Shown here: piece after piece, positions 3,836-46,252 of the stretch
How positions within the stretch are numbered: the stretch's first letter is position 1
Layout of the letters: each line of letters begins with the position of its first letter
Virus record (IMG/VR): IMGVR_UViG_3300045004_000088
Location: 1-64,000 of that record
Source of the DNA: a virus
DNA: 64,000 nt
Strand: one strand, 5' to 3'
The notes under the pieces: generated by a model
Told to the model about the DNA's origin: nothing
What the model saw: the letters and a program-made list of their open reading frames with translations, nothing else
Databases searched by the model: none
Translations under genes and position numbers: made by a program

Positions 3836-4137
3836 CCGAGGCACTTGGCGACGATTTCCTCTGCGGTCATGGTCGCACGGATCTGTGACGGGATCTTGTT
3901 CTCTTTCTTGAGCAGGTGATCAAGGTACTTGTCAACTTCGCCGACAATGTACACCTTCAGGTCGGCCACCTTTTTGTCGTACTCGGCGAACAGGTCGGCT
4001 TCGACGTTCGCCAGCTTTAAGTTGAGTTTGTTGTACTCGTCCGTCCTTTGAAGGAACGCCGCCCGGACGTTTTCCAGTGCCAGTTCCAGCGTGGCGATCT
4101 TCTCTTCTAGTTTCTTGTCCAACCACTGATTGCTCAT
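3829..4137 (-). CDS. small coiled-coil protein (102 aa)
   Basis: ATG with GGGAGAAACA RBS; heptad-like composition. Confidence 0.5.
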   Translation of the reverse strand: MSNQWLDKKLEEKIATLELALENVRAAFLQRTDEYNKLNLKLANVEADLFAEYDKKVADLKVYIVGEVDKYLDHLLKKENKIPSQIRATMTAEEIVAKCLGH

Positions 4138-4144
4138 TGTTTCT

Positions 4145-4172
4145 CCCGGTTGTGAGTTGAATTATAACCGGG
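4145..4172. promoter_or_regulatory. inverted repeat CCCGGTT(N14)AACCGGG whose loop carries a minus-strand TATAAT and which overlaps the RBS of the 3829-4137 gene
   Basis: Read directly; reverse complement of the loop contains TATAAT 24 nt upstream of the minus-strand ATG. Confidence 0.35.
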
Positions 4173-4244
4173 CGGGACTCTGTTAAGAAACAAGAATGGC
4201 AATTCTCACAGGCTTCACTCCATACGGGAGAAGAAAGGGTTCAA

Positions 4245-4892
4245 ATGGCAATTCTCAAGGGGTTCCCGCCGAGCAACTGCATCAGTCCGACGATCCACAT
4301 CACGGAGTACGATCTGAGTCAGATGGCGGGGTGTTACAACGTGACGGTTTCGGAGAAGGACTTGGAGCCGTACAAGGCCAAACCGCTGTCGAAAGCGGAT
4401 CAGCAGAAGAAGTACCTTCTGGGCAACGTCTGGCTCCAGAAGAAGGAGTACGGCAAGTGTTTCCGGCTTGAGATCGAAGCGATGTTGGATCGGTTCAAGC
4501 CGCTCGGCATGAGTCTGGGCGTGGGCGAGAACATGATGAAGGATCTGATGCGGGTGGCGTCGGACGCGCAGGAAGTGTTCTGCCGGGACAACATGTCTTT
4601 CCAGAAGGGTCCGACGTGGTTCCTGTGGATGGAGTACCACGTCATTCACGCCCTGAGTGGGTTCCTCCAGACGGATCTGCGGCCGGCGTGGGTGAAGACG
4701 TGGGAGGGGTATGCCGGCGACGGCGTGTCGTGGGTGAAGTGGCGGATGAGCGAGAAGCTGGACTACCCGACGCCGCTGGCGACCAGAATGAAGGAGGTCG
4801 ATCCAGAGAGGTGCAAGGTGCGGGAGACGAAGACGAAGCCCCGCAACGTGATTGCCACCAGAAAGCTGTCAACGTTGCAATACTGGTTCTAA
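4245..4892 (+). CDS. hypothetical protein (215 aa)
   Basis: ORF track; intrinsic terminator immediately downstream. Confidence 0.6.
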   Translation: MAILKGFPPSNCISPTIHITEYDLSQMAGCYNVTVSEKDLEPYKAKPLSKADQQKKYLLGNVWLQKKEYGKCFRLEIEAMLDRFKPLGMSLGVGENMMKDLMRVASDAQEVFCRDNMSFQKGPTWFLWMEYHVIHALSGFLQTDLRPAWVKTWEGYAGDGVSWVKWRMSEKLDYPTPLATRMKEVDPERCKVRETKTKPRNVIATRKLSTLQYWF

Positions 4893-4899
4893 ATCAAAC

Positions 4900-4932
4900 A
4901 AGCCCGGCCAGAAGCCGGGCTTGTTCGTTGTT
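4900..4932. terminator. rho-independent terminator hairpin AAGCCCGGC-cagaa-GCCGGGCTT followed by a T-rich tract, between convergent genes
   Basis: 9-bp GC stem plus GTTCGTTGTT read directly. Confidence 0.6.
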
Positions 4933-5212
4933 AGCGGTTGACGGTCGGACAGCGACCGTTGGGGCAGGTTGACGGCCAGTTGACGGTTTGCCAGACGGTT
5001 GTCGGCTGGAAGTGGACCGTTGTCGGCGCGGCGTAAACGACGGTCGGCGGGTTCGCGTGTACGGTCACGACGGTTTGGCACGAGGTGGGAGCGGGTTGAC
5101 AGGTTGAGACGGTCTGGCAGGTGTTGCACTTCCGTTTGCCGAAGGCTTGTGCGTCCTGTGCGAGCAGGAAGACGGCTGCGGCGACGGCGAGTGCGGTGAT
5201 GCACTTCTTCAT
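4931..5212 (-). CDS. small secreted Cys-rich protein (signal peptide MKKCITALAVAAAVFLLAQDAQA; CQTV/TVV repeats)
   Basis: In-frame ATG at 5212 with GGAG RBS 6 nt upstream; N-terminal hydrophobic signal-like segment; the track's N-terminal extension was rejected. Confidence 0.55.
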   Translation of the reverse strand: MKKCITALAVAAAVFLLAQDAQAFGKRKCNTCQTVSTCQPAPTSCQTVVTVHANPPTVVYAAPTTVHFQPTTVWQTVNWPSTCPNGRCPTVNR

Positions 5213-5327
5213 GGGAAACTCCTGATGATCGACCTTCCGGTCGAGTTCCTTGCTGGTAGTGGGAAGTCCACTCCGCGTCCGGCGGTCCAGCGGGGTTACT
5301 TTAGGCATGATCGTCACCTTTGTCAAC

Positions 5328-5399
5328 TTGATAATTTCCGGGCGTGTGGTTTACAAGGTGTGTGAGGCGGTCGATAATGCCAGTTGCGGGTTGATAATT
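5328..5399 (+). repeat. three copies of the 9-mer (T/C)(T/C)GATAAT(T/G) at 5328, 5371 and 5391 in a divergent intergenic region
   Basis: Read directly; candidate operator or -10-like elements. Confidence 0.4.
5350..5378 (+). promoter_or_regulatory. sigma70-like promoter TTTACA-17 bp-GATAAT driving the 5434 gene
   Basis: Hexamers and 17-bp spacer read directly; about 55 nt upstream of the ATG. Confidence 0.45.
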
Positions 5400-7872: not shown

Positions 7873-7913
7873 GGTATTTAGCTTCGGAGCATGGCGTTTG
7901 GATGCTAAATACC
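7873..7913. promoter_or_regulatory. 10-bp perfect inverted repeat GGTATTTAGC(N21)GCTAAATACC spanning the divergent starts of the 7869 (minus) and 7902 (plus) genes
   Basis: Read directly. Confidence 0.4.
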
Positions 7914-8360
7914 GACATGAGAGACTTCAAGTTGTGGATCGAAGCGATTGAATACCGCCCCGTCAGGAGCATTGCCGAGGCAAAGGTGTTGTCGCGGTCG
8001 AGCAGTCTAGACACTGCGGGGATGGATTTCGGCACTATTCAGAAGGCTCTCGCAGCACGCCGAGAAGTGACGTATCAGGAAATGTTTCCGTTGGCGAGCT
8101 TGGCGAACGTACCGGCCGGCGACAAGAAGAAGACTCTGGAAATGATGGGAGCTTTCGCCCAGATGTTGGGCCGCGAGGCTCCAGACACGCTGGAACAGTC
8201 TCAAGCTCTGGCGGTGCGTGGTCCCGATTTCAGGAAGATGACGCCGCCAATCATCGTTTACAGCGACGACAGCGGCATTCGGGTTATGGACGGGGTGAGC
8301 CGCGTCAATGCGGCGCGGCTGCTAAAAGTGTCGGAACTGCGTGCGTTCGTGATCAAGTAA
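7902..8360 (+). CDS. possible ParB/Srx-fold protein (C-terminal MDGVSRVNAARLL); start may instead be the ATG at 7917
   Basis: Weak resemblance to the ParB N-terminal domain motif; ORF track. Confidence 0.45.
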   Translation: MLNTDMRDFKLWIEAIEYRPVRSIAEAKVLSRSSSLDTAGMDFGTIQKALAARREVTYQEMFPLASLANVPAGDKKKTLEMMGAFAQMLGREAPDTLEQSQALAVRGPDFRKMTPPIIVYSDDSGIRVMDGVSRVNAARLLKVSELRAFVIK

Positions 8361-12013: not shown

Positions 12014-13201
12014 TTAAGTGACACCCAGTATCCTTTTGGCTTCGTACCAGTCGCCCTCGTTATCCCCGGCCAGACCTTCGCGAACCCGCTTCTCGTAAAG
12101 CTGGTGTGCCATCTTCGCGATTTCTGCGGTCCTGTCGGCTTGGCCAAGATTCGATTTGGCTTCGTCCAGAGACAGTCCTTGTTCGTGGAACTCTTTGAGC
12201 CGGAAGATCTGGTCGAGGTTCAACCCCTCACTGCTCTCGGCCCATTGCTTCGGCAACAATTTCATCCGCGTTTGCAGATCGGGACACTTGAACTCACGGA
12301 CGAACTTGAAGCGGCTCGGACGGTTTTTGAGCGCGTGATCGACTTTCGTTATGTCGTTAACGGTCATCACGAAAAAACAGTTCTCGTAGGTATTGTAGAC
12401 CCCGTCCAGCCCATTGAGAATCTGATCAAACGTGAACTTGATGCTGTGGTTCTCGGTTCCGAGGATGCACCGCCGGCCGTCGAAGTAGTTGTCGAAGTCC
12501 TCGAACAGTACGATGCACCGGCTGCTGATCTGGCTAAAAATCCCCATCACATCGAAGTTACTGAAGTCCGGTGTGAACGTGATAATCTTGATCGGCACCC
12601 GGTACTTGGTCGCCAGATACTTGATGAAGAACGTCTTGTTGTTACCGGGCGGGCCGTAGATCAACGCGCCACTCTTCTGCTTCTTCCCAGAGAACACTTC
12701 GGCCGCATCCTTCTCGATGTCTTCCCACAGTTGCGGGTCCAGAGCGGGCTGCGGGGGCGTCCCTTTGATGAGGCCGATCATGTCCGTGTAGTTGGGCATG
12801 ATGACTTCGGCCGGGACGCCCAGACTGTTCATCTGGATCTCTTTGATCTTGAAGTCGAGGTACTGTTTGACGCGGGCGGCACGCCAACGTAAACAGGTCA
12901 GATGCGTCACGCTGTCCTTGCCGTGCCACCCCGCCGTCAGCAACCGTTCGCCGTGGTTGAGGTAGAACCACGGGCAGCCCTCGAAGAAGCAGAGGGCGCG
13001 GAACTCGACGGGGTACTTAGCTTCGGTGATGAACTCTTCGCTGATGATGAACTTCCGGTGGCCCGGTCGTTTGGAGATCTCGTACAGCGTCTTGAACGTG
13101 CGGGCGTCGAGACGGATCGTTATTGATCCGGCGTAGCGGAACAGCACCCACACGCTCGCGAGGACGCCGAGGATTGCACCGAGCCAGCCGAGCCAGTTCA
13201 T
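12014..13201 (-). CDS. membrane-anchored AAA+ ATPase (N-terminal TM; Walker A GPPGNNKT; Walker B VLFEDFD)
   Basis: Motifs read directly; ATG with GGAGA RBS. Confidence 0.75.
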   Translation of the reverse strand: MNWLGWLGAILGVLASVWVLFRYAGSITIRLDARTFKTLYEISKRPGHRKFIISEEFITEAKYPVEFRALCFFEGCPWFYLNHGERLLTAGWHGKDSVTHLTCLRWRAARVKQYLDFKIKEIQMNSLGVPAEVIMPNYTDMIGLIKGTPPQPALDPQLWEDIEKDAAEVFSGKKQKSGALIYGPPGNNKTFFIKYLATKYRVPIKIITFTPDFSNFDVMGIFSQISSRCIVLFEDFDNYFDGRRCILGTENHSIKFTFDQILNGLDGVYNTYENCFFVMTVNDITKVDHALKNRPSRFKFVREFKCPDLQTRMKLLPKQWAESSEGLNLDQIFRLKEFHEQGLSLDEAKSNLGQADRTAEIAKMAHQLYEKRVREGLAGDNEGDWYEAKRILGVT

Positions 13202-13907: not shown

Positions 13908-14282
13908 TCACTTGTCTTTCTTGTTCACCTTGATCGTGTCTTCCGGCGGCGAACCCGTCTTCATGTCTTTGGCCTGATCCAACCCACGGTAGTACCCGGC
14001 ATGCCAGAGTTGGTTGCCCTCGTACTCGTTCGGCTTCTGGCCGGTGATCACCGCGAGCATGCCTTCGATCTTGCCGTTCTGCCGCGCGAGTTCGAGAGTG
14101 TTCTCGGTCTGCCGCTGGTACATCGTCATGGTGAAGTCGTTCATCTGCTGCTGTTGCAGCTTGTCCTTCTGGTCGATCAGCAGGACCGCCTGTTGCAGCC
14201 GGTCGTTCTGGTGCCGCTGGTACAGGTTGTAGCCGACCGAACACAGAAGGATCGCGACCACTGCCCACGTCGTCTTGTTCAT
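13908..14282 (-). CDS. membrane-anchored coiled-coil protein with Gln-rich segment (124 aa)
   Basis: ATG at 14282 with AAGGA RBS; N-terminal hydrophobic segment; the track extension was rejected. Confidence 0.55.
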   Translation of the reverse strand: MNKTTWAVVAILLCSVGYNLYQRHQNDRLQQAVLLIDQKDKLQQQQMNDFTMTMYQRQTENTLELARQNGKIEGMLAVITGQKPNEYEGNQLWHAGYYRGLDQAKDMKTGSPPEDTIKVNKKDK

Positions 14283-14316
14283 GGCTTTTCCTTGAAAGGG
14301 GTGTATCGACAGCAAG

Positions 14317-14345
14317 ATACTACCGCTTTTCTTTATCTGCGTCAA
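14317..14345 (-). promoter_or_regulatory. sigma70-like promoter TTGACG-17 bp-TAGTAT (minus strand) upstream of the 14282 gene
   Basis: Hexamers and spacing read directly. Confidence 0.5.
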
Positions 14346-14938
14346 GCCTTCTTGGGCTGGCCGGTCTTCGGGTCGTAAACCGTCATCGCGTCCAGAACTT
14401 CGAGACGGTCTTCGGCCCGGAGCCGTTCGATCCATTCGATGGCGAACTGTGCGGGGGTCATGTCGTTCGCGCCGTGCATGTGGAGCATGTCGCGGTTCTC
14501 GTGCCAGTACCCCGCCATAAGCTGCGACGACGGTTCGGGGACGTACAGGTTGGTCTTCGCGACGTGGACGCCCGCGTGGATGTGTTCGATCCACAGGTTG
14601 AGGTCGCTGGCGTCTTCCGGCGCGATGATCTCGAAGTACAGCACCTTCAGTTTGTCGTAGCATCGTGGAATCTGTTGAATGACTTCAGCGATGGACGGCT
14701 TGAAGAAGCCCTGATAGCCGAAGGTGTGAACCGTCCACAGTCGGTCGAGAACGTAAAGGTCGCCCTTGTACGGTTTCTCTTTGGCGTCCCATGTGTACGA
14801 CTGGTTGAACAGGTCGGCCTTGTGTTCCAACAGGAACGCTTTGTTCCCCTTGAGTCTGATCGGTAGGAACTTCTTGGCTAGTTCCGTTACCTGTTCATCC
14901 GTAGTGGTGTGGGGAACCTTGAAGGGGGGCATTGACAT
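14342..14938 (-). CDS. hypothetical protein (198 aa)
   Basis: ATG at 14938 with GGAG RBS. Confidence 0.55.
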   Translation of the reverse strand: MSMPPFKVPHTTTDEQVTELAKKFLPIRLKGNKAFLLEHKADLFNQSYTWDAKEKPYKGDLYVLDRLWTVHTFGYQGFFKPSIAEVIQQIPRCYDKLKVLYFEIIAPEDASDLNLWIEHIHAGVHVAKTNLYVPEPSSQLMAGYWHENRDMLHMHGANDMTPAQFAIEWIERLRAEDRLEVLDAMTVYDPKTGQPKKA

Positions 14939-15230
14939 TGGAAACTCCGTCTTGGGGTTTGGGTTCTTCGGGCTTCTGACCACGGGGCCGGAACGGGGTC
15001 TTGCCGTCGTTATAGGCGTCGGCTTGGGCGAACGAACTCAATCCGGGCTGGAATTCGCACCGGAAGTTGAACAAGTGCGTTGTGCCTTGTGGAGCTTCTT
15101 TCTTGAGAAGCTCCATCATGTCTTTGACGGCGCGGATGGTAGCCGCCGTTGTCTCGAAGTCGTGCGAGATGACGACCATGCCGAGCGGTTTGAAGTCCGG
15201 GTTAACGCAGTTCTGGGTGACGACGATCAT
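14895..15230 (-). CDS. hypothetical protein (111 aa), overlaps downstream gene by 44 nt
   Basis: ORF track; ATG. Confidence 0.4.
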   Translation of the reverse strand: MIVVTQNCVNPDFKPLGMVVISHDFETTAATIRAVKDMMELLKKEAPQGTTHLFNFRCEFQPGLSSFAQADAYNDGKTPFRPRGQKPEEPKPQDGVSNVNAPLQGSPHHYG

Positions 15231-15757
15231 TTTGACGTTTCCTTTTTGAGTAGCCGCCGAACGCGGCTGATTTCTTTGTCCGAGTGTACCACGCCGCCCG
15301 CGTTGAAGTCAATGTACCACTGGAGAACGTCGGCCCGCGTCCGCAGATCGTTGACGTTGATCTTCATCGTGTTGACGAGGCGGATGCTGTCGGTGTACTC
15401 GCGGTAGTAGGAGCCGAACGCCTTGATCTCATTGTTGATGAACTTGCGGAACGCTTCGACCCGTTGCTTGCCGTCAACGATGACGAAATCGTTGTAGCCC
15501 TTCTCGTTGTTGAAGTGCCAGTTCGGGTTGTTGAGGTAAATGACGCGGCCGGTCTTGCCGCCGCGCAAGAAGAACTCAACGAACGCGACCCGCTGCTTGT
15601 CGGACCAGACGTGTCCCCTCTGGAAGTCGGGGTCCAAATCCAGACCTTGTTCAACGAAGTCGTTGATGGTGCTGATCAGGCTTTCCGGCGAGACATCGAC
15701 CTCGTAAGAGCCGTGCCGCACGAACTGCGGGATGTCGCGGAACTTCGTGATCTTCAT
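15227..15757 (-). CDS. DUF262 / ParB-like nuclease-fold protein (QRGHVW ... IVDGKQRVEA)
   Basis: DGQQR-type motif read directly; ATGA coupling to both neighbouring genes. Confidence 0.6.
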   Translation of the reverse strand: MKITKFRDIPQFVRHGSYEVDVSPESLISTINDFVEQGLDLDPDFQRGHVWSDKQRVAFVEFFLRGGKTGRVIYLNNPNWHFNNEKGYNDFVIVDGKQRVEAFRKFINNEIKAFGSYYREYTDSIRLVNTMKINVNDLRTRADVLQWYIDFNAGGVVHSDKEISRVRRLLKKETSK

Positions 15758-16770
15758 TTCACTTTACCTTCGGTGAACTGAATCGACTTTGCGACACTCC
15801 CGAACAGGACTTGGAGCGTCTTCTCGATTTCGTACTTGGAGTCCGTTTTGTCCAGCACAATACCAACAAACCCGGTTGCGGACAAGATGGGTTTGACCTC
15901 GGACTCTCTCATTGTAGACGCGAACGCCTCGGCCGCGAGGTGACCGTTTTTAGTCATGTGGGCAGCACATGACCAGATCTGATCGACCTCCTGCATGTTG
16001 CCGCTGAGAATGAAGACCGGACACGGACCCTTCCCCAATGTTTTATTCGCGTCACGTTTCACGAGCAAAAACTTGACGTGATTCGTCTGGGACGGCTTTC
16101 TTTCGTGGTCCTTGAGCTTCGGGAGCTTATCGAAGACGGAAACATCGGGAAGCTTCCCCGGCTCGTGGATGAAGTGGGCGAAGTCGCCGTAACTGAGTTC
16201 CCACTGGCCTTGTGTCGCCACCTCCCAGTTTTCGTAGGCGGCGCGAATCAGTTCCCCGACTTCTTGTTTCTTAATGCCGCGAACGGTGCCGATGTGGTGA
16301 ACGACCTCTTGGAAGTAATCGCTCTCTTCGGACTCGGCGATGTTGACGGCGCGGTAGCACCACTTGCAGACGACCACGACCTCTTTCAGCACAACGGTAC
16401 GGGTCGCGTAGTCGAGGTGCCAGATGTCGAGGCCGACTTCGGGGTTGGCGGTGCAGTAGAAGCACTCGTTGCCGTGACGGACGAGTGCTTCGTCCGTCAG
16501 GTTGGGCCAATACTTGCAGCAGCCCCTCTTGTTGAGGTGGTCGAGTCCTTTGCCGGCAGCGACGGAAGGAAGCACCAGAGGCGTCAGTGTGGGCTTGGAC
16601 ATGGCACGCTGGTCTTTCTCGAATTCACAGATCGGACAACCACAGACGTTCTTCTTGGTCGGGTTGAACATCGCGGAGCCGTTCTTCCGGGCGACGAAGA
16701 ACGGTCCTTGCTTCGCTGGTGTGGCGAGCGGCGGCAGAATGAACATCTTGCCGTCCGGCACCTTGAACAT
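15754..16770 (-). CDS. Cys-rich protein with HNH-like segment (CFYC...DIWHLD...CKWC), 338 aa
   Basis: Paired CxxC motifs flanking a His-containing segment; assignment tentative. Confidence 0.45.
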   Translation of the reverse strand: MFKVPDGKMFILPPLATPAKQGPFFVARKNGSAMFNPTKKNVCGCPICEFEKDQRAMSKPTLTPLVLPSVAAGKGLDHLNKRGCCKYWPNLTDEALVRHGNECFYCTANPEVGLDIWHLDYATRTVVLKEVVVVCKWCYRAVNIAESEESDYFQEVVHHIGTVRGIKKQEVGELIRAAYENWEVATQGQWELSYGDFAHFIHEPGKLPDVSVFDKLPKLKDHERKPSQTNHVKFLLVKRDANKTLGKGPCPVFILSGNMQEVDQIWSCAAHMTKNGHLAAEAFASTMRESEVKPILSATGFVGIVLDKTDSKYEIEKTLQVLFGSVAKSIQFTEGKVK

Positions 16771-16772
16771 GC

Positions 16773-17051
16773 TCACTTGTGGATGCCCTGAGTGGCCGAG
16801 ATAACTTCGAGGCCGAGGCCGATGAAGATGGTAAACACCCCGGCGCGTTCGATCACGGTGCCGACCAGATCGTGATGGCCGAGGTGTACGAAGTGTCTGA
16901 GGATCGGTTTCTGAGCTTTGTGGACGCTCTGTAGCTCGTTGCAAACCTTGAGGGCTTCTTCCAGTAGTTGCGGGGGTTCGAGCTTCTGCGCCACTCCGAT
17001 GCCGATCACTTCAACGTTGGGGGCATCTGGCTTGAACGGGAACGCGGTCAT
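16773..17051 (-). CDS. hypothetical protein (92 aa)
   Basis: ATG; downstream of a promoter/terminator pair. Confidence 0.45.
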   Translation of the reverse strand: MTAFPFKPDAPNVEVIGIGVAQKLEPPQLLEEALKVCNELQSVHKAQKPILRHFVHLGHHDLVGTVIERAGVFTIFIGLGLEVISATQGIHK

Positions 17052-17083
17052 TGGTTGTACCTTTGTGTTTGGTGTCAGGGACA

Positions 17084-17112
17084 GTTATAGATCGGCCAGA
17101 GCCACTTGTAAA
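17084..17112 (-). promoter_or_regulatory. sigma70-like promoter TTTACA-17 bp-TATAAC (minus strand)
   Basis: Read directly; 32 nt upstream of the 17051 ATG, immediately after the terminator. Confidence 0.5.
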
Positions 17113-17155
17113 GCAAGGCAAAACAAAAAGGCCCAGGTCGAATTCGACCTGGGCC
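17113..17155 (-). terminator. intrinsic terminator GGCCCAGGTCG-aatt-CGACCTGGGCC followed by TTTTTGTTTTG (minus strand), downstream of the 17175-17960 gene
   Basis: 11-bp stem and U-tract read directly. Confidence 0.7.
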
Positions 17156-17174
17156 TTCCGGCTGAGGAGAGGGA

Positions 17175-17960
17175 TCAGCCTTGTGGGGCGGTGTCGGCCG
17201 GCTTGGTGGTGCCGATGCCGAGGTTCGCGAGGGTGGCCTTCGCCGACTGCTTGGCCTTCCACTCGGCGGTCGCGGCCGACGACGCACTGGTCTGGTTCAG
17301 TTGCTTCGCCACTTCGACCGCACCGTTGTTGGTGTCGATCTGCTTCTGGATCTCTTCCGCGTACCCCGATGCCGCCGCGAGGCTACTGTGAGCCGAGGAC
17401 TTCTGGAAGTTGATGCCGACGCTCGCCAGTTCCGCGCGGGTCGCCGAAAGGTCCAGCTTCACGCCGAGGCGGTCGGCTTCCTTCTCCAGATCGTCCGCAC
17501 GCTTGACCGCTTCCTTGACCTGCGTCAGCACGCTGTTGTGCAGGGTCGTTTGTTCGCCAAGTTCCTTCGTCGCGTCGGCGGCGCGGGCCTGAGCGGTACT
17601 CAACTGCTCGGCGAGATCGAGCAGTACCGGGTCGTCGGTGTTGCCGTTCACCTCACGCGCCCGCTCGTTCACCTGCGCGGTCAGCACGTTCACTTCGCTG
17701 TTCGCCTCGTTGCTCTCGCGGGTCAGGCTGTTGATCTGGCCCTGACTCTCGTTGAGCTTCGAGACGTACCCGGAGATCTCGCCCTTCGCGTCATCGACCG
17801 CTTGCTTCATGTTGTTGACCGCGTTGGCCTTGTCGATGTTCTTGACGCCGGCCGACGCCGACGATCTGGCGTTGAACCAGAGCTTCTTGACGTTCTTCGC
17901 GCCCAAGACGAGCAGAACCGCACCGCCGAGGATCGCGAGGATGATGAGGAACGTGTTCAT
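17175..17960 (-). CDS. membrane-anchored long coiled-coil protein (N-terminal TM; PspA/IM30-like character)
   Basis: N-terminal hydrophobic helix then roughly 230 aa of Ala/Glu/Gln-rich heptads; AAGGA RBS. Confidence 0.5.
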   Translation of the reverse strand: MNTFLIILAILGGAVLLVLGAKNVKKLWFNARSSASAGVKNIDKANAVNNMKQAVDDAKGEISGYVSKLNESQGQINSLTRESNEANSEVNVLTAQVNERAREVNGNTDDPVLLDLAEQLSTAQARAADATKELGEQTTLHNSVLTQVKEAVKRADDLEKEADRLGVKLDLSATRAELASVGINFQKSSAHSSLAAASGYAEEIQKQIDTNNGAVEVAKQLNQTSASSAATAEWKAKQSAKATLANLGIGTTKPADTAPQG

Positions 17961-18019
17961 GGTCAGAATCCTTGTTTGTGTTTTGCGAAACAGTTAGGGG
18001 TTAAGGGACCGCAGCGGAA

Positions 18020-18793: not shown

Positions 18794-19105
18794 TTACCGT
18801 ACCGCCGCCGCGATCACTTGGAAGAAGCCGAGTACGAGGGCGGCGACGACGATGGCGAGCGCGACGTTGGGTTGCTTGCCGTGGGTGACGATGTTGTTGT
18901 TGGCGTCACGCACGTCGGCGGTGCCGAGTAGTTCCTTGTTGAGATCGCCGGGCGTGAGCTTGTCGATCCACCGCCAGAACGGGTAGAACAGGGCGGCGGC
19001 GAAGACGACGGCGATCAGTGCCATCACGACGTGCGGCCAGAAGTCCGGCGGAAAGAAGCTCGCGTTTTCGGCGACGGTTTCGGCGGTAGCGAGAAGCGGG
19101 GTCAT
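18794..19105 (-). CDS. small membrane protein with two predicted TM helices (holin-like topology)
   Basis: Two hydrophobic stretches; GGAG RBS. Confidence 0.5.
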   Translation of the reverse strand: MTPLLATAETVAENASFFPPDFWPHVVMALIAVVFAAALFYPFWRWIDKLTPGDLNKELLGTADVRDANNNIVTHGKQPNVALAIVVAALVLGFFQVIAAAVR

Positions 19106-19151: not shown

Positions 19152-20258
19152 TTACCAGCGGTAGTGGAACACGAGCCAGTATAGACCAACCAGCCCGATA
19201 ATGATCAGCGGAATGTAGACGAAAATCCAGAGCAAGGCTTTTCCTACATTTCCGCCGCCCGACGAATGGTGCGTCGGCGGATCGTCGTACTCGTAGTAGT
19301 CAACCTGTTTCGGCCGGGGGTTCCAGCAGGCGTTGACGTACCCGTCATCGTACATCATGTCGGCGTCAACCCCTCGCGGGGTGTACGTCACGTCTCTCGG
19401 AATCCCTTGCCGTTCGAGGGCGGCTACCCTTGCGCGAAGGTCGGCGTTCTGGGCGTACATGGCGTTGAGTCGAGCTTGGTCCATCGACATCTGGTGGTGG
19501 TACACCCAGAGGGACATCACGTCGATGGTTTGACTCGCCAACCAGTAATTCCAGTACGGGTGGTAGGAGTCGTTGTAGTGGACGATCACCGTTGACGGGT
19601 AGCGGCTGTAGTACGACCCGTAGAAGGTATCCGTCCGCTGCGAGCGGTTCTGCCATCGCGACTCGTCCAGCCGGCCGCGCAGATAGTCGGCAGACTTATC
19701 GTTTTTGGCAATCGGCACGTCTTTACCGGCAGGCGTTTTGTACGACGCCGCAGGTGCTTCGGACTTCTCGTAGGACTTTCGGCTCTCGGTCTTTCGGGCT
19801 TCGGTTCCCGACAACTTGTCGAACGTTTCAGCCGCCGGTTTCTTGCTCACGGTGGTCGGCTGACGACCTTGAATCGGTGTCGTCGTCACCGTCTTGTTTG
19901 GAGGTGAGGTAGACCCGCCTCCAAAAACCGGCTTGTCTGTCGCACTGCCCTTTGCGACACCTGTCGGCGGATTCGACCCGCCGCTGAAACTCGGACGACT
20001 CGTTGCCGGCGGTTTCGCCGTACTGGTGGGAGGGTTGCTCCCGCCACTGAACTTCGGGGTGCTGGAGGGAGCGGCACTGCTTCCTCCGCTAAACTTCGGA
20101 GCGCTACTGCTGCCGCCCGAAAACGCGGGCTTACTACTCCCGCCACTGAAACTGGGGCGACTCGAACTGCCACTGCTGGACTTGGGCGGGCCGGCATAAG
20201 CGTTGCTGGCGAACAGCAAAGTAAAGGCCAGCGCCAGCCCGCACATCTTTCTGATCAT
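19152..20258 (-). CDS. secreted or membrane protein with signal peptide, 6x xFSGGS S/G/P-rich repeats and C-terminal TM anchor
   Basis: Signal peptide MIRKMCGLALAFTLLFASNAYA; repeats and C-terminal hydrophobic tail read directly; GGAGG RBS. Confidence 0.6.
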   Translation of the reverse strand: MIRKMCGLALAFTLLFASNAYAGPPKSSSGSSSRPSFSGGSSKPAFSGGSSSAPKFSGGSSAAPSSTPKFSGGSNPPTSTAKPPATSRPSFSGGSNPPTGVAKGSATDKPVFGGGSTSPPNKTVTTTPIQGRQPTTVSKKPAAETFDKLSGTEARKTESRKSYEKSEAPAASYKTPAGKDVPIAKNDKSADYLRGRLDESRWQNRSQRTDTFYGSYYSRYPSTVIVHYNDSYHPYWNYWLASQTIDVMSLWVYHHQMSMDQARLNAMYAQNADLRARVAALERQGIPRDVTYTPRGVDADMMYDDGYVNACWNPRPKQVDYYEYDDPPTHHSSGGGNVGKALLWIFVYIPLIIIGLVGLYWLVFHYRW

Positions 20259-23800: not shown

Positions 23801-25351
23801 TCAGCGGATGAGTGGAACCCAACCAGCCGACTCGGTCGGACGCTCCTGTTGGGCCGGGCGGTTCTTGATGCGTTCCATCATACGGCCCCAAGACATCGAC
23901 TCCTTTTTCTCGCCGCCGTCATCCTTCTTTTCCGGTTTCTCCTCTGCATCCCCTTCGTCAGAAGACGGTCTGGTGAGCGACTTGGCCGCTCCCATTCTTT
24001 TCTCCTGCGGACCTTCCTCGCCGCCCATATCGTTTTCGTCCTCGCCGTCCTTGAACAGACCTTCCGCTTCGCCGCCCTGACCCTTGTTGATCATTTGGAG
24101 CCATTCGCGGATCTTGCTCTTGGTCAGCCCGGTGTGGCCCTTAACGTCCTTGAGCTTGTCGGGACTGAACCCATCCTTTTCAGCCCAAGATGCGATCTTG
24201 ACCAGATAGGCGATGTCCGATGCTTCTTGTTTGCTCCAGCCGCCGCCGCCCAGTACCTTCTTGACCTTTTCGGGGTCGTTGTCCCTGAGAACCCAAGCCG
24301 GTGCCAACCAGCGGTCGCCACGGAAGTCCGGCGGCATGTCGTCTTCGCGGAATTCGAGATCAGGGAACACGACGTTCAGAAGGCCCAGACCCTTAGCCGC
24401 GCCCATGTACCCTCTGGCGTCCATGTCGGGATCTTCGAGGCCGCTGAGGAACGATTTGCGGATCTCGGACGGGTCAACGTCGGCCATGTCTTTGAACTGC
24501 CCAATCGCCGCTTTTTCCTTGTCGCCGATTCCCGAAAACTTTCCGAACTTGCCAGTTTGATTGAGGTAACGGAATGCCGTCATCGGGTCGTCACGCATCT
24601 TGTCCATAGGACTGTTGATAAACTTGACCTCGCCCGCCTTCAGGTGGTGTGCGCCACCATGCGGATCAATCAATTCGCTGTTCTCGCCGTCACTTTGACT
24701 CAATGGGATATACATGGCGTTCATCGTGAAGTCGCGACCCATGCTGTCTTCTTCGACGCTGGTCGCAACGTCGGCTTTGTCCGGGTTCACCCGGCGACTT
24801 TTGCCGTGCTTGCCGAGGGACGCAAGCTCGAACTTCTCGCCGTTTATCTCGACGGTGATCTCGATCTCTTTGCCCTGTCCGTCCCAACGGCTGGCGTAGA
24901 AGCACCGACGCTTGTTGCCGCTCGGCAGATCGGCGTACCGCTCGTCCTGACCCATCTCGCCGTCTTTCGGCTTGACCTCAGTAAACGGTTGTTCCGAGTT
25001 GGAGAGAATCATGCGGACTTCGGAAGGAGTGGCGTCCGTAACGAGGTCGTAGCCCTTCGGGGTTTTGCCCTTGAGGTGGTCGCGAACCGCGCCGCCGGTG
25101 AGCCACAAGTTCTTGGCCTTCATCAGCGGTTCGTGTTCGCCCTTCGACTTGTCGATGGTGGTGTAGCCGAGGCCGACCTGACCGCTGCCCTTGAAGGCTT
25201 GGATCAGTGTGCGGAGGTTCGGGCGGGTAGCCTTATCGACGCGGAAAGGAGAAAACTCCGCAGAGCCTTCTTGCTTTTGCAGTTTGATTTTGGACGAGAT
25301 GGGGGTCTTGGCGTCTCGTTCTTCGCGGAACAAAGTGAACTTTTTCATCAT
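23801..25351 (-). CDS. tRNA nucleotidyltransferase (CCA-adding) / poly(A) polymerase head-domain protein with long acidic C-terminal extension
   Basis: LTGGAVRD and RDFTMNAMY motifs match the GGxVRD and RDFTINA signatures of the class II CCA enzyme head domain; AGGAG RBS. Confidence 0.65.
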   Translation of the reverse strand: MMKKFTLFREERDAKTPISSKIKLQKQEGSAEFSPFRVDKATRPNLRTLIQAFKGSGQVGLGYTTIDKSKGEHEPLMKAKNLWLTGGAVRDHLKGKTPKGYDLVTDATPSEVRMILSNSEQPFTEVKPKDGEMGQDERYADLPSGNKRRCFYASRWDGQGKEIEITVEINGEKFELASLGKHGKSRRVNPDKADVATSVEEDSMGRDFTMNAMYIPLSQSDGENSELIDPHGGAHHLKAGEVKFINSPMDKMRDDPMTAFRYLNQTGKFGKFSGIGDKEKAAIGQFKDMADVDPSEIRKSFLSGLEDPDMDARGYMGAAKGLGLLNVVFPDLEFREDDMPPDFRGDRWLAPAWVLRDNDPEKVKKVLGGGGWSKQEASDIAYLVKIASWAEKDGFSPDKLKDVKGHTGLTKSKIREWLQMINKGQGGEAEGLFKDGEDENDMGGEEGPQEKRMGAAKSLTRPSSDEGDAEEKPEKKDDGGEKKESMSWGRMMERIKNRPAQQERPTESAGWVPLIR

Positions 25352-33577: not shown

Positions 33578-36500
33578 ATGGCTGATCCGCAACTTCACGT
33601 CGTAGTCGATGCAATCGGCCGCAACGTAAACATGAACATCGACCCAAACCAGTGGGACGAACTGAAAAGTTCGATCACCGCCGGTATGAAGTCAGTTGTC
33701 GGGGAAGTCGCGTCGGTCATCAGCCAGAAAACGTCGTCCCAGTGCAAGTCAATCGAAGCAGCTTTGAACGAAATGAGTTCGAGTTTCGCTGAAGAAATAT
33801 CGGGCCTGAAGCGGGTGATGAACGAACTCGGCCAGAAGATCGACAACATCGGCAAGGGAACGGGAACCCCAACTCTCGGCGGCGACGTAAGCGGTTCCTT
33901 GGGCGTGATTCAAACGAACACTCAGGCCGTTTTAGACTACGTCAAGGGCGAATTCAAAACCGCGTTTGCTGGTCAGGCGTCCGACATTCGTGCAATGAAA
34001 GATATGGCGTCAACGCCGGGCAAGTTCTTCACACACGACCAAGAAACACACAGACTGCTAGGCGGCTTGAAAGCCGCCATCGAAGCATGCTGTCCGGGTT
34101 CTTCGGTCGTTGACAAGACCCCATCCGTAGCTCCTTCGCCGACAGAAAGGGCGGCTCCGAGTGCGGCACCATCGGGTGGCGGTGGTGGCGGGGGTGGTGG
34201 CGGGGGCGGTGGCGGGCCGAGTCCGATGGACCGTGCCAGAGCATTTGAAGCGGCCATGAATGCCGCGACCACGTCAAACGAGGGCATGAACGACTCGCTC
34301 ACGCGGGGTCGAAGGGCTTATCGTCAGCACCGCGAAGACATGATGGCGACGGATGACGCACTTGAAGGTTTCATCGGCCACGTCGCCGATCTTCAAGAGG
34401 CGTTTTTCGTCTTCTCGAAGGACATGAGTTTCTTGAAGGATACGTTCCTCGGCACCTTCAAGTCCATGTTCAAGGAAGCCGTACACGAAGAAGTCAAGTT
34501 CATCAAAGAGACGCGGGCCGCGATCAACGAGACGCAAGGTCTGACAGCCGAGACACGAGGTCTTCAAGACGCGATGACGGACATCGGCAAGACCGCCAAG
34601 ACAACCGGCGTCGGCCGCTCCGAGTTCCAGGCGTCTTACCTGAAGGCTCTGAAGTCGGGCATCAAGGACCAGAAGATCGCGATGGCGGTTACGACGGCCC
34701 AGTTGAACACCGAGAAGCAGTTGGGTCTTGAGGCCGGCGAACTGACCGAAGAGTTCATCAAGTGGAACAACCAGTACAACATGTCCACCATGCAGATCGC
34801 CGAAATGGGGCGGGGCATGCGGGACATCGCACGCTACACAGGCTTGACGGGCAAGGAACTCGCCAACGCCGTCAAACAGGGTGACAACTTCGTTGAGGTT
34901 CTCCGCAACGCCGCCATGTTGAGTGCGAGCGCAGCCAAGAACGTCATGGAGATCGCCGCCAACGCCCAAAAGATGGGTGTGACTAAGCAGATCGAACCGC
35001 TGATCAAGGCGATGGCATCGACCAACAACTTGTTCCGCGAAGCGTCGAGCGAGACTCGCGCCTTCCTGTTCCAAGCCGCCGCCCAGGTCGGTCGCACGGG
35101 CGACTTGATGAAGGGTACGATCCTCAAGACGAAGGGCGGCATCAAGGACATGGAGAAGGGCATGGAGATGATGCTGAAGAAATTCGGCGTCCAATCCGTT
35201 GAGGCCATCGACAACCTGTCCGACGAAGCCAAGATGAAGCTCAACCTCCAGTTGAAGGCCGCATACGGTCTTGAACTCGGCGAGTTGCAGCAGTCGCTGA
35301 AGGCGTTGAAAGAGTCCAGCAAAACCCTGGCCGACCGCCTCGATGACATCCGCAAGAAACAACAAGGCAACCTCACGCTGGAAGAAAAACTGGCGTTGAA
35401 GGAAGAGGAGCGTCGTCTCAAAACGAGCAAGAGCTTCGAGATGTTGACGAGTTTGGACGAGGCGGCTAAGGGCGCTAAGGACATGAACGCCGCGTTGTCC
35501 AAGTTCGGAGAAAGAAGGAAGGACTTCGAGGGCGACCTGAAGGCGATGGGTAAGTCGTGGGGCAGCAACGCCGGTGCAGCCCGTGACGCCATCAACGAAG
35601 CTTTGAAGGGTGTCAACGAGTCGCTGAAGGCGTCCGGCAAGTCGGAACTGAGTATCGACTCTTCTGAGATCGAGAAGGCGTTGAAAGACCCTGCGGCGTT
35701 CCGCGAACTGTCGGCCAAGTTGACTAAGGCCGAACAAGAAGCCGCGACCGCACAGAAGGCCGCTCTGGACCCGATGAGCAAGATCGAGCAGGGCGTCCGC
35801 GAACTGAACGACACGATGAGGAACTTCACCAGCAGTTTCCTTTCAAGTTACATGAACTTGACGGGAGTGTTGGGCGTATTGGCTCCGCTCTTGGGCATGA
35901 TGGCGGCACAACAGGCGTTGTCCATCGCACGGTGGCGGGCCGACAAGGACTTCGGTGTGATGGGTGTGCTTAAAAAAGGCTTGGGCAAGATCTTCGGTTA
36001 CGGCGGCAAGAAGAAGGGCGGGGCGGGGGACGTTGCACCCGGTGCGGCGGCTGGTTCAGGAGTTGATGCGGGCAAGGGCGTCGAGGCTTTGGCAAAAGAC
36101 GGTTTGGGCGGCGTGTCTCACGTCGAAGACGACACGGTAGCAGGGTTGCTGCGTCAGTTGCTTCACTGCCTGTGCAGTCCGAAGGCCAACGGGATCGAGA
36201 ACGACGAGTTCAAAAACATCGGCAAGAAGAATAAGGCCAATGCCGCCCAGATCGAACAAGGAGCGGTCGCCAAAGCGGAGAAGAAGGCGGGCGGGGCAGC
36301 GGCCAAAGAAAAAAGCAAGGCGTCGGCTGGTGGCGACGACACCAAATCGATCCTAGACAAGATCGAGAAACTGAAGGGGGACGGACCAAGAATCGCTAAA
36401 GCGGCCGGCATCATCGCGGCACTGACAATCGGAATCGTGCTGTTGGGCGCGGTGTTGATCAAGTTGGCTAACATGTTGTTCAGCAAATTGAAGCTGGACA

Positions 36501-41928: not shown

Positions 41929-42249
41929 GTGGCCAACTTCTTTGAAGAAACGAACATAAACCCCAGAACTTACTTCACTGCCGCGAGTCGGTATTCCGAC
42001 TCGACCATCTGCTATTACACGGACATGAAACGCCTGTCACTTACGACGTACAAGCGTGGCGTTTCTGCCGTGACCCCCAACGACAAATTCATGGTAATCG
42101 GGAAGGGCCAAGAGTACCGTCCCGATCTGGTCAGTAGTCGCGTCTACGGTCTGCCCGATTTCTGGTGGCGGATCATGGAGGCTAACGGGATCTACGACAT
42201 TTACGACTTCAAGGCCGGCGTCAACATCCGAATCCCCTCAATGATCTAA
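41929..42249 (+). CDS. LysM-like tail protein (gpX-like; ...GLPDFWWRIMEANGIYD...IKAGVNIRIPS)
   Basis: C-terminal LysM-like pattern; GTG with GAGGTGA RBS (the track start is a GTG at 41923). Confidence 0.45.
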   Translation: MANFFEETNINPRTYFTAASRYSDSTICYYTDMKRLSLTTYKRGVSAVTPNDKFMVIGKGQEYRPDLVSSRVYGLPDFWWRIMEANGIYDIYDFKAGVNIRIPSMI

Positions 42250-42258
42250 GGAAAACGT

Positions 42259-45820: not shown

Positions 45821-46252
45821 ATGCCGGCAATGAAGTTTTTGGGTGTTCCTTATCCCATTACACCGCACCCGCGAGGATACTTGAGATCGAGCGGGGGCAT
45901 CAGTCAGATCAAGTCCGATCTTTTGCAGTTGCTGCTCACCAACCCCGGCGAGAGGGTGATGCTGCCGACTTACGGCACGCCCCTCAAGAAGTTCATCTTC
46001 GAGCAGAACGACGCGATCTCGGCCGAGAGCGTGCGACAGGCGATCATCAATTCGATCAACCTGTGGGAGCCGAGAATAACGGTTCAAGAAATCACCGTTA
46101 AAAACAGTGCGGACGAAAGTCAATTAAACCCTCAAGATCCCAAAGAAGACTTGGAGAACGTGATGTCTATTACGATCAGGTTCTTCGATCCTGAGAACAT
46201 TCAAGAGGTCGATGCCGTGGTAATCGAACTACCAGTAGGTGGAGTACAATGA
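45821..46252 (+). CDS. baseplate wedge protein, gp25/GPW family
   Basis: Protein MPAMKFLGVPYPITPHP...SDLLQLLLTNPGERVMLPTYGTPLKKFIFEQND matches the conserved GPW/gp25 N-terminal pattern. Confidence 0.75.
   Translation: MPAMKFLGVPYPITPHPRGYLRSSGGISQIKSDLLQLLLTNPGERVMLPTYGTPLKKFIFEQNDAISAESVRQAIINSINLWEPRITVQEITVKNSADESQLNPQDPKEDLENVMSITIRFFDPENIQEVDAVVIELPVGGVQ

What the first reader, a model, noticed from the sequence alone, without database searches (positions are those of the whole stretch)
15227..16770. Adjacent ATGA-coupled DUF262/ParB-like and Cys-rich HNH-like genes: possible split GmrSD-type (type IV restriction-like) nuclease
The 15227-15757 protein carries the DUF262 signatures QRGHVW and IVDGKQRVEA (DGQQR motif). 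The overlapping upstream gene encodes a 338-aa protein with paired CxxC motifs around a His-containing segment (CFYC...DIWHLD...CKWC) reminiscent of HNH/DUF1524 nucleases. In GmrSD/BrxU-type enzymes these two modules are fused in one polypeptide. Here they appear as separate coupled genes inside a phage-like accessory operon that also contains a membrane AAA+ ATPase (12014-13201). This could be an inter-phage competition or anti-host nuclease module. Two further ParB/Srx-fold proteins (7902-8360, weak; 55246-55704, clear DGHHR) are in the same window.
Basis: partly seen in the sequence, partly recalled or inferred. Interest (0 to 1): 0.55.

Follow-up and report, generated by a model that had tools for sequence, protein, structure and literature searches.

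The report
Mini-DUF262 gene beside decayed HNH fusion
Two tightly packed genes of an uncultivated large phage encode a small stand-alone DUF262 (ParB-like) protein and a rare fusion of a nuclease-derived zinc finger that has lost its catalytic residues to an eIF4E/Bles03-like domain; they are probably not a split GmrSD restriction enzyme.

Summary
On the minus strand, a 176-aa gene (15227-15757) and a 338-aa gene (15754-16770) overlap by ATGA. The quoted motifs are present.

- **The 176-aa protein is a real DUF262.** It matches PF03235 at E 3e-12. It belongs to a large family (at least 833 clusters, 259 phage records) of about 175-aa stand-alone "mini-DUF262" proteins.
- **The 338-aa protein is not DUF1524.** A confident model and profile searches show a phage HNH-family zinc-finger domain (phrog_5200) fused to an eIF4E/Bles03-like domain.
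- **The nuclease centre has decayed here.** In this phage and its two closest relatives the family's conserved His114, His139 and His143 are replaced, while all four zinc cysteines remain. This phage's copy has also changed Glu115 to Asp and Arg185 to Ala. More distant relatives keep these residues.
- **The pairing is confined to one syntenic phage lineage.** Within that lineage each gene also occurs without the other.
- **ATGA coupling is not special to the pair.** The next junction downstream overlaps the same way.

Best reading: two independent accessory genes, a nucleotide-binding switch and a nuclease-derived binding protein. A GmrSD-like two-part module remains possible but unlikely. Interest is modest.

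The parts
15227..15757 (-). Mini-DUF262 gene (176 aa). Stand-alone ParB/Srx-fold protein with the motifs FQRGHVW, VDGKQR and FNAGG.
   Evidence: PF03235 at E 3.4e-12, residues 33-109 against profile positions 3-77 of 199. phrog_1583 at E 1.6e-26. PADLOC NsnA at E 2e-11. It keeps every invariant residue of a 49-member family alignment. The second motif aligns weakly to BrxU residues 226-247.
15754..16770 (-). Gene for a 338-aa fusion protein. It has a disordered N-terminus (residues 1-59), an HNH-family zinc-finger plus helical domain (about 60-205) and an eIF4E/Bles03-like domain (about 225-338).
   Evidence: AlphaFold2 model with a 141-sequence alignment, mean pLDDT 83.6. The profile search finds 491 relatives, mostly 150-200-aa proteins matching residues about 60-205. 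All 40 sampled relatives match phrog_5200 'HNH endonuclease'.
16330..16464 (-). HNH-type zinc-finger core (residues 103-147). It runs from C103xxC106 through a beta-hairpin to C135xxC138 and a helix. The catalytic positions are substituted.
15757..16098 (-). eIF4E/Bles03 (DUF1917)-like alpha/beta domain (residues about 225-338).
15754..15757 (-). ATGA stop/start overlap between the fusion gene and the DUF262 gene.
   Evidence: Read directly from the sequence.
15227..15230 (-). Second ATGA overlap, between the DUF262 gene and the downstream 111-aa gene.
   Evidence: Read directly from the sequence. It shows that the coupling is generic to the operon.
16773..17051 (-). 92-aa gene immediately upstream. 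It is present in every locus that carries both the HNH-Bles03 gene and DUF262, and in L016.
   Evidence: BLASTP finds homologues in L004, L005, L006, L008, L014, L015 and L016. None is found in L007 or L011.
14895..15230 (-). 111-aa gene downstream of DUF262, with no family assignment.
   Evidence: Homologues in L004, L014 and L015 only. No significant Pfam or PHROG hit.
17126..17159 (-). Terminator-like hairpin that probably marks the upstream end of the transcription unit.
   Evidence: 15-bp stem with 9 GC pairs, followed by a T-run. This is a pattern match only.
12014..13201 (-). AAA+ ATPase with a hydrophobic N-terminus, further down the same gene string. It is syntenic in relatives.
   Evidence: PF00004 at E 8e-12. 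It is conserved downstream in L004, L007, L008 and L014.

Best explanation
These are two separate accessory genes in a tightly packed operon of an uncultivated large myophage. They are not a split GmrSD enzyme.

**Gene 1 (15227-15757).** It is a full member of a widespread family of about 175-aa stand-alone "mini-DUF262" proteins. It keeps the residues that line the nucleotide pocket in GmrSD, BrxU and SspE (QR, DGxQR, NxGG). It most likely binds, and perhaps hydrolyses, an NTP and acts as a small nucleotide-dependent switch on nucleic acid. It would do so on its own or with partners that are not its neighbours. This step is inferred, not shown.

**Gene 2 (15754-16770).** It is a rare fusion of a phage HNH-family zinc finger (phrog_5200) with an eIF4E/Bles03-like domain. 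In this phage and its two closest relatives the three conserved His of the nuclease centre are replaced, while the four zinc cysteines and the fold are kept. This phage's copy has also changed the conserved Glu (to Asp) and Arg (to Ala). It is therefore most likely a non-cutting binding protein descended from a nuclease, much as DotN/IcmJ is a non-catalytic HNH-like zinc protein. That is also an inference.

**Origin.** The patchy presence of gene 2, together with the 92-aa gene upstream, fits a lineage-specific and possibly once-mobile HNH insertion next to a more stable DUF262 gene.
For: **Domain identities**
- DUF262 assignment.
- The mini-DUF262 family is large and has no nuclease domain. 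It has 833 clusters at E<=1e-5, nearly all 170-190 aa with PF03235 only, and 259 phage records. The longer variants carry N- or C-terminal extensions with no HNH match.
- Gene 2 domains.
- Loss of H114, E115, H139, H143 and R185 with the Cys4 site retained.
- The HNH core is the most diverged part of the window protein, at 29% identity to the L008 homologue against 36-53% for the other domains.
- No PF07510 (DUF1524) hit.

**Independence of the two genes**
- L007 carries DUF262 at 69% identity in a syntenic block. It has a phosphoribosyltransferase upstream and a 4HBT thioesterase downstream, and no HNH fusion.
- L011 carries the HNH-Bles03 gene followed directly by the homologue of the window's 213-aa gene, with no DUF262.
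- L012/L013 carry the fusion without DUF262.
- RP13, MT835469, LR745208, L009 and L010 carry DUF262 without the fusion.
- The DUF262 motifs are the same whether the neighbouring HNH is decayed, intact or absent.
- ATGA coupling also joins DUF262 to the next gene.
Against: - **Adjacency is conserved within the lineage.** The pair stays adjacent and near-overlapping in five distinct lineage members (window, L004, L006, L008, L014). Over that range DUF262 falls to 61% identity and the fusion protein to about 39%.
- **Some relatives have an intact HNH next to DUF262.** In L008 and L014 the HNH centre is intact, so a working NTPase-plus-nuclease pair in those phages is not excluded.
- **Some residues in the core are still conserved.** W117, H118, D120 and N143 are invariant in the three-member window clade, so a non-canonical active site cannot be ruled out.
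- **Several comparison contigs are short.** L011 is 4.2 kb and L012/L013 are 2.4-2.8 kb, so "absent" there means "not adjacent".
- **No biochemical function is known** for any mini-DUF262 protein.
Confidence: 0.6

Rival explanations
1. The two genes form a GmrSD-like two-part module. The mini-DUF262 acts as an NTP-driven sensor or regulator. The neighbouring protein acts as the effector, with the HNH domain cutting DNA and the eIF4E/Bles03-like domain reading a modified base or nucleotide. In the window's clade the effector would have become non-catalytic, or would use a non-canonical site (H118/D120/N143).
For: - Adjacency and near-overlap are conserved in five distinct members of the lineage.
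- The HNH centre is intact in L008 and L014/P0004.
- DUF262 regulates an attached or neighbouring nuclease in GmrSD, BrxU and SspE, and possibly in Menshen (PMC10952713).
- A separate GmrS-like gene is needed by a GmrSD enzyme in an E. coli isolate (PMC12373910).
- Nuclease-plus-reader-domain architecture is typical of modification-dependent enzymes (general knowledge).
Against: - There is no DUF1524 domain.
- The catalytic residues are lost in the window copy.
- Each gene occurs without the other inside the same syntenic lineage (L007, L011).
- Hundreds of mini-DUF262 genes have no such neighbour.
- No fusion of the two domains was seen among the 120 best DUF262 hits.
- Synteny among related phages is expected without any functional link.
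Confidence: 0.15
2. The 92-aa gene and the HNH-Bles03 gene are the remains of a selfish homing-endonuclease-type insertion beside the DUF262 gene. The nuclease decayed after fixation, and the open reading frame persists because it was domesticated or has not yet been lost. It has no functional relation to DUF262.
For: - phrog_5200 and related PHROGs are free-standing phage HNH endonucleases.
- The gene is patchy within the syntenic block. It is replaced by a phosphoribosyltransferase in L007.
- The family also occurs in tandem copies and in other fusions (P0008, P0017, P0014).
- The active site has decayed specifically in one clade, together with a 5-residue deletion.
- The HNH core is the fastest-evolving domain.
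Against: - The full-length frame is kept across proteins only 55-57% identical, and the Cys4 site and Bles03-like domain are well conserved. That indicates purifying selection rather than decay.
- No target site or homing evidence is available.
- The fusion family is very rare, which is not what an actively spreading element would show.
Confidence: 0.15
3. The mini-DUF262 is a phage counter-defence protein. As a nuclease-less mimic of the DUF262 domain, it would mix with or compete against host GmrSD/BrxU-type enzymes and block them.
For: - It is widespread in virulent and large phages.
- It contains only the DUF262 core.
- BrxU function depends on DUF262-mediated dimer-to-monomer cycling (PMC10952713).
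Against: - It is purely speculative, with no experimental report found.
- The family also sits among nucleotide-metabolism genes, in L010 on a 2.8-Mb contig and in RP13. That fits an enzymatic or housekeeping role better.
- The strict conservation of the NTP-pocket residues is not needed by a simple decoy.
Confidence: 0.1

Closest known systems
GmrSD / BrxU / SspE (DUF262 + DUF1524 type IV restriction and related enzymes)
   Same: The 176-aa protein has the N-terminal ParB/Srx core of DUF262, with the QR and DGxQR motifs and an NxGG motif. A His-Me-finger-superfamily domain is encoded next door.
   Different: - There is no DUF1524 domain.
- The neighbouring HNH belongs to a different family (phrog_5200) and has lost its catalytic residues.
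- The DUF262 is about 175 aa, against about 250-300 aa for a GmrS domain.
- The two genes are independently dispensable in relatives.
- The genes are encoded by a phage rather than a defence island.
Stand-alone GmrS-type genes (GmrS/GmrD of E. coli CT596; GmrS1 + GmrSD2 of an ECOR strain)
   Same: A DUF262-only polypeptide is encoded beside a nuclease-type gene. Split forms are already described (PMC4437046, PMC4619093, PMC12373910).
   Different: In those systems the partner carries DUF1524 and restriction activity has been demonstrated. Here the partner is an HNH-Bles03 fusion with a decayed centre.
phrog_1583 / short phage DUF262 proteins (for example Ralstonia phage RP13 ORF165, Salmonella phage ST64B Sb33)
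   Same: Same length, same motifs, and full-length alignment at 30-55% identity. phrog_1583 matches at E 1.6e-26.
   Different: Nothing essential differs. The window protein is an ordinary member. The function of the family is unknown.
phrog_5200 phage HNH endonucleases (about 150-200-aa CxxC...HE.W.YDD...CxxCH..H proteins)
   Same: Same zinc-finger and helical domain, with homology shown by a profile search. All four Cys, W88, W117, H159 and W190 are kept.
   Different: The window protein replaces H114, E115, H139, H143 and R185. It also carries an extra N-terminal segment and a C-terminal eIF4E/Bles03-like domain.
DotN/IcmJ of the Legionella Dot/Icm type IV coupling complex
   Different: The similarity is distant, at 8% identity. 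The biological context is different. DotN has no eIF4E-like domain.
Bles03/DUF1917 (PF08939), eIF4E and phosphothreonine-lyase fold
   Different: The window sequence itself does not reach any Pfam threshold. Cap-binding or lyase residues were not assessed. Fusion of this fold to an HNH domain has not been described, as far as I know.

Membership tests
GmrSD-type (type IV restriction) enzyme, split form | DUF262/GmrS ParB/Srx domain with a QR motif and a DGQQR-type nucleotide-pocket motif | tested here: met
   PF03235 at 47.3 bits against a cut-off of 33.2. FQRGHVW and VDGKQR are present. D, G, Q and R are invariant in the mini-DUF262 family.
GmrSD-type (type IV restriction) enzyme, split form | Complete GmrS domain, including the second conserved region (residues about 181-278 of GmrS) | tested here: inconclusive
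   The Pfam match covers only profile positions 3-77 of 199. A short NxGG segment aligns weakly to BrxU 226-247, with a whole-sequence E of 0.029. The protein is only 176 aa.
GmrSD-type (type IV restriction) enzyme, split form | DUF1524/GmrD His-Me-finger nuclease domain (PF07510; D/E-H-N-N motif) | tested here: not met
   The 338-aa protein gives no PF07510 hit at E<=1 or E<=10. PADLOC and NCBIfam give no hits. Its HNH-like domain belongs to phrog_5200.
GmrSD-type (type IV restriction) enzyme, split form | Intact nuclease catalytic residues in the partner | tested here: not met
   H114 is L, E115 is D, H139 is Y and H143 is N. These positions are conserved in 111-138 of 141 family members.
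GmrSD-type (type IV restriction) enzyme, split form | The two modules co-occur consistently, either fused or as linked genes | tested here: not met
   They are adjacent only in one phage lineage. DUF262 occurs alone in L007, L009, L010, RP13, MT835469 and LR745208. The fusion occurs alone in L011 and L012/13. No fused forms were found.
GmrSD-type (type IV restriction) enzyme, split form | NTP-stimulated cleavage of modified DNA | not testable with these tools
   This needs purified proteins and modified or unmodified DNA substrates.
Stand-alone mini-DUF262 phage proteins (phrog_1583) | About 170-190 aa, full-length similarity, and the invariant residues P43 F45 Q46 R47 H49 W51 D95 G96 Q98 R99 N152 H158 | tested here: met
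   phrog_1583 at E 1.6e-26. There are 833 homologues, with the 120 listed at 54-84% identity (apart from an identical copy) and the same length. All invariant columns are shared by the window protein.
phrog_5200 HNH endonucleases | Cys4 zinc site and a beta-beta-alpha core followed by a helical bundle | tested here: met
   C106, C135 and C138 are invariant and C103 is present in 140 of 141. Model strands 112-120 and 125-134, helix 136-142, pLDDT above 90. The profile search retrieves the family.
phrog_5200 HNH endonucleases | Conserved catalytic-type residues (H-E in strand 1; C-x-x-C-H-x-x-x-H on the helix) | tested here: not met
   All are replaced in the window protein, and the three His are also replaced in P0002 and P0003. 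They are kept in L008, P0004 and P0007 and partly in P0005 (C at position 114). That these residues are catalytic is inferred from the general HNH motif. It was not tested.
Bles03/DUF1917 (PF08939), eIF4E-like fold | Sequence match to PF08939 above the curated threshold | tested here: not met
   The window protein gives no hit. Relative P0004 scores 20.6 bits against a cut-off of 23.1. Three of 40 relatives hit at E<=0.01.
Bles03/DUF1917 (PF08939), eIF4E-like fold | The eIF4E/Bles03 alpha/beta fold | tested here: met

The most novel reading that the evidence does not exclude
In this jumbo-phage lineage, the mini-DUF262 and the HNH/eIF4E-like protein would form a phage-encoded nucleic-acid surveillance module driven by nucleotide binding. 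The eIF4E/Bles03-like fold would act as a previously unrecognised reader of a modified base or cap-like nucleotide. The window's clade would have turned the nuclease into a non-cutting binder, for example a protective or regulatory protein.
Probability: 0.1. Interest if true: 0.6.

Novelty: new variant of a known kind. Interest (0 to 1): 0.3.

Why it matters
This mainly corrects an annotation. A motif-level resemblance to GmrSD does not make a restriction enzyme here.

Two things may be of some use to specialists.
- **A large, uncharacterised phage family.** Short, nuclease-less DUF262 proteins are very common in phages and strongly conserved, and their function is unknown. DUF262 is a recurrent sensor or NTPase module of anti-phage defence, so a function for the phage-borne minimal form would be informative, whatever it turns out to be.
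- **An unreported domain architecture.** The HNH-family zinc finger fused to an eIF4E/Bles03-like domain has not been described, as far as I know. It offers a natural series from intact to decayed nuclease centre within one lineage.

Neither point is a major surprise.

Tried and rejected
- **Direct searches with the 338-aa protein.** Pfam, NCBIfam and PADLOC scans and a PDB sequence search found nothing significant.
- **Phage DNA and protein searches.** tblastn of the 338-aa protein and megablast of 14000-18000 against the phage collection found no match.
- **First structure prediction.** A 3-sequence alignment gave a useless model (pLDDT 36.7). It was replaced by a 141-sequence alignment.
- **Scans for more HNH-Bles03 loci.** Two scans of IMG/VR and one of JGI metagenomes found no confirmed relatives. 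One alignment was too diverse to search with.
- **AFDB fold library.** It was unavailable.
- **Pfam HNH (PF01844).** It is only a non-significant hit in a canonical family member (E 5.8). The HNH assignment therefore rests on PHROGs, weak PDB profile hits and fold matches.
- **Fusions as evidence for a link.** I looked for proteins that fuse mini-DUF262 to an HNH domain and found none.
- **K versus L in DGxQR.** I checked whether this tracks the presence of the HNH neighbour. It does not.
- **Literature.** I found no paper on a function for short phage DUF262 proteins.
- **7902-8360 as a third ParB/Srx protein.** Rejected, as there is no support in any library.
Full report
**1. What is in the sequence**

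The genes of this stretch are on the minus strand. 15227-15757 encodes a 176-aa protein that contains DFQRGHVW and IVDGKQRVEA. 15754-16770 encodes a 338-aa protein that contains C103-F-Y-C106, W117-H118-L-D120 and C135-K-W-C138.

The two frames overlap by ATGA at 15754-15757. The same kind of overlap joins the 176-aa gene to the next gene (111 aa) at 15227-15230. The 92-aa gene upstream ends 2 nt before the 338-aa start. A terminator-like hairpin at 17126-17159 precedes this gene string.

Tight coupling is therefore a feature of the whole operon, not a mark of this pair. Base composition is unremarkable here.

The window belongs to a phage with a contractile-tail type baseplate:
- a baseplate hub OB domain;
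- a wedge subunit;
- a P2 I-like tail protein;
- PKD-domain proteins.

An identical copy of the 176-aa protein lies on a 254-kb metagenomic contig, which suggests a jumbo phage.

**2. The 176-aa protein**

It matches Pfam PF03235 (GmrSD_N, formerly DUF262) at E 3.4e-12, above the curated threshold. The match covers only profile positions 3-77 of 199. It matches phrog_1583 (function unknown) at E 1.6e-26. It also matches the DUF262 components NsnA and PD-T4-2_A in PADLOC.

It is one of a very large family:
- There are 833 clusters at E<=1e-5.
- Nearly all are 170-190 aa, with PF03235 as the only domain.
- Apart from an identical copy, the 120 listed hits are 54-84% identical to the window protein.
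- 259 phage records have a tblastn match. They include T4-like phages of enterobacteria, Salmonella phage ST64B, Ralstonia phage RP13 and uncultured megaphages.

A 49-member alignment has these invariant residues: P43, F45, Q46, R47, H49, W51, D95, G96, Q98, R99, N152 and H158. The window protein has all of them.

A profile of this family aligns weakly to two stretches of BrxU (7p9k): the QR...VW stretch, and a stretch reading VL..FI..NSGG. So the mini-protein appears to combine the ParB/Srx core with a second DUF262 motif in a compact form.

The middle residue of DGxQR is K or L in roughly equal numbers (22 against 26 of 49).

According to the literature, the DGQQR pocket binds and hydrolyses NTPs in GmrSD, BrxU and SspE (PMC4619093, PMC10952713). 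I infer the same nucleotide binding for the mini-protein. Its biological role is unknown, and I found no paper on it.

**3. The 338-aa protein**

Direct searches were empty apart from a weak phrog_5200 "HNH endonuclease" hit at E 3e-5, residues 119-201. Only three close homologues exist among 5.8 billion proteins.

A profile of the three full-length sequences (the window protein plus two of these) was searched against 1.84 billion representatives. It found 491 relatives. Nearly all are 150-200-aa proteins that align to residues about 60-205. All 40 sampled relatives match phrog_5200 (best E 2e-62), and many also match other PHROGs labelled HNH endonuclease.

The family consensus is CxxCG...L.CHE.W.YDD...L.....CxxCH.V.H.G.A, followed by helices with H159, R185, S186 and W190.

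With 141 sequences AlphaFold2 gives a confident model, mean pLDDT 83.6:
- a disordered N-terminus;
- a beta-hairpin plus helix between the two CxxC pairs, followed by a helical bundle;
- a separate alpha/beta domain from about residue 225.

For the C-terminal domain:
- Foldseek agrees. The best viral hit is a DUF1917 protein, which is the Bles03 family.
- Some relatives give sub-threshold PF08939 hits.

For the middle domain:
- Weaker matches are HNH domains of a group II intron maturase, a phage HNH endonuclease, Cascade-HNH and IscB.
- Pfam's own HNH model does not reach significance.

DUF1524 is excluded. The eIF4E/Bles03-like half was not noticed.

**4. The nuclease centre has decayed in this copy**

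Column counts in the 141-sequence alignment:

| Position | Family majority | Window | P0002 / P0003 |
|---|---|---|---|
| 114 | H in 120 (D in 13) | L | Q |
| 115 | E in 138 | D | E |
| 139 | H in 111 | Y | Q |
| 143 | H in 131 | N | N |
| 185 | R in 134 | A | R |

All four Cys are kept. The window clade also has a 5-residue deletion just after the helix.

More distant full-length relatives keep these residues. The L008 332-aa protein, P0004 and P0007 keep all of them, and P0005 keeps all except position 114, which is C.

The HNH core is the most diverged part of the window protein. It is 29% identical to the L008 homologue, against 36-53% for the other domains.

By analogy with the general HNH motif, this predicts loss of nuclease activity. 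In that motif a His acts as the base on strand 1, and a His or Asn on the helix after the second CxxC binds the metal. The analogy is established knowledge but was not tested here.

One caveat remains. W117, H118, D120 and N143 are invariant in the three-member clade, so an unusual active site cannot be excluded.

**5. Are the two genes a unit?**

In one syntenic phage lineage the order 92/99 aa, HNH-Bles03, DUF262 recurs. It is seen in the window (and in identical contigs L017 and L018), in L004/L005, L006, L008 and L014/L015. Across these, DUF262 is 61-84% identical and the fusion protein 39-57%.

Within the same lineage, however:
- L007 has DUF262 at 69% identity. It is flanked by a phosphoribosyltransferase and a 4HBT thioesterase, and there is no fusion gene.
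- L011 has the fusion gene followed directly by the homologue of the window's 213-aa gene, with no DUF262.

Outside the lineage:
- DUF262 is found without the fusion in RP13, MT835469, LR745208 (two tandem copies), L009 and L010.
- The fusion is found without DUF262 in L012/L013.

None of the longer forms among the 120 best mini-DUF262 hits contains an HNH domain. The DUF262 motifs do not change with the state of the neighbour.

Taken together, adjacency looks like inherited synteny. The two genes are independently dispensable.

**6. Comparison with known systems**

GmrSD is defined by DUF262 plus DUF1524. It exists both fused and as separate GmrS and GmrD genes (PMC4437046, PMC4619093). A solo GmrS-like gene that assists a GmrSD enzyme has also been reported (PMC12373910).

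The window meets the DUF262 criterion. It fails the DUF1524 criterion, the intact-active-site criterion and the co-occurrence criterion. It should not be filed as a split GmrSD.

A mode of action like GmrSD, with an NTPase controlling a neighbouring nuclease, remains conceivable for the relatives with intact His residues. I give it about 0.15.

The patchy distribution and active-site decay also fit a former selfish HNH insertion (about 0.15). A counter-defence decoy role for the mini-DUF262 is speculative (about 0.1).

**7. Verdict**

The most likely picture (about 0.6) is two independent accessory genes:
- an ordinary member of the uncharacterised mini-DUF262 phage family, probably a nucleotide-binding switch;
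- a rare HNH-derived zinc-finger protein fused to an eIF4E/Bles03-like domain, which in this phage has lost its nuclease centre.

Novelty is limited to an unreported domain combination and a clear case of active-site decay. Interest is about 0.3.

Noticed in passing
window 17126-17159 (-): Strong terminator-like hairpin (15-bp stem with 9 GC pairs, then a T-run). It lies between the 261-aa gene and the 92-aa gene and probably marks the start of the transcription unit that holds the two genes.
   Followed up: no
window 23801-25351 (-): 516-aa protein with a PolyA_pol/tRNA nucleotidyltransferase head domain (PF01743 at E 4e-20; phrog_2244). ARAGORN finds no tRNA gene anywhere in the 64-kb window.
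   Followed up: partly
window 33578-41377 (+): 2599-aa open reading frame with no PHROG match and no significant Pfam match. It lies just upstream of the baseplate genes: hub OB domain 43692-45806, wedge 46249-47811, and P2 I-like 47815-50970.
   Followed up: partly
window 42001-44000: GC content drops to 0.434 against about 0.56 elsewhere. The dip covers the 477-aa ORF 42259-43692, which has no family match.
   Followed up: no
window 55246-55704 (+) and 7902-8360 (+): 55246-55704 is a ParB_N-domain protein just above the Pfam threshold (28.0 bits against 26.3), with sub-threshold NCBIfam hits to parB, SerK and Noc.
   Followed up: partly
L003 (LR745208.1, 485-kb uncultured phage) 3935-4519 and 4523-5329: Two mini-DUF262 genes lie in tandem.
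   Followed up: no
L010 5001-5540; L001 4004-4549; L007 5001-5537: Mini-DUF262 genes recur next to nucleotide-metabolism genes. In L010, on a 2.8-Mb contig, the neighbours are NrdD, NrdG, an HD protein and dCMP deaminase upstream, with RecJ and guanylate kinase downstream. In phage RP13 the gene lies about 1.4 kb downstream of ribonucleotide reductase alpha and beta, after four small ORFs. In L007 the neighbours are a phosphoribosyltransferase and a thioesterase. This may hint at a nucleotide-related role.
   Followed up: no
P0008, P0017, P0014 (relatives of the HNH-like domain): The phrog_5200-type domain also occurs as tandem duplications within one protein. In P0014 it is followed by a segment that, by eye, resembles a DEDD-type exonuclease (not tested).
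   Followed up: no
window 19152-20258 (-): 368-aa protein with repeated Ser/Gly/Pro-rich 'FSGGS' units between hydrophobic N- and C-terminal segments. A DUF350-like small membrane protein follows at 18794-19105. Both positions are conserved in the syntenic relatives.
   Followed up: no
P0192, P0194, P0199 and other long mini-DUF262 forms: Nine of the 120 best mini-DUF262 hits carry an N-terminal extension of about 95-135 aa. It has no match to the HNH or fusion-protein profiles. These could be real fusions or mis-called starts.
   Followed up: partly
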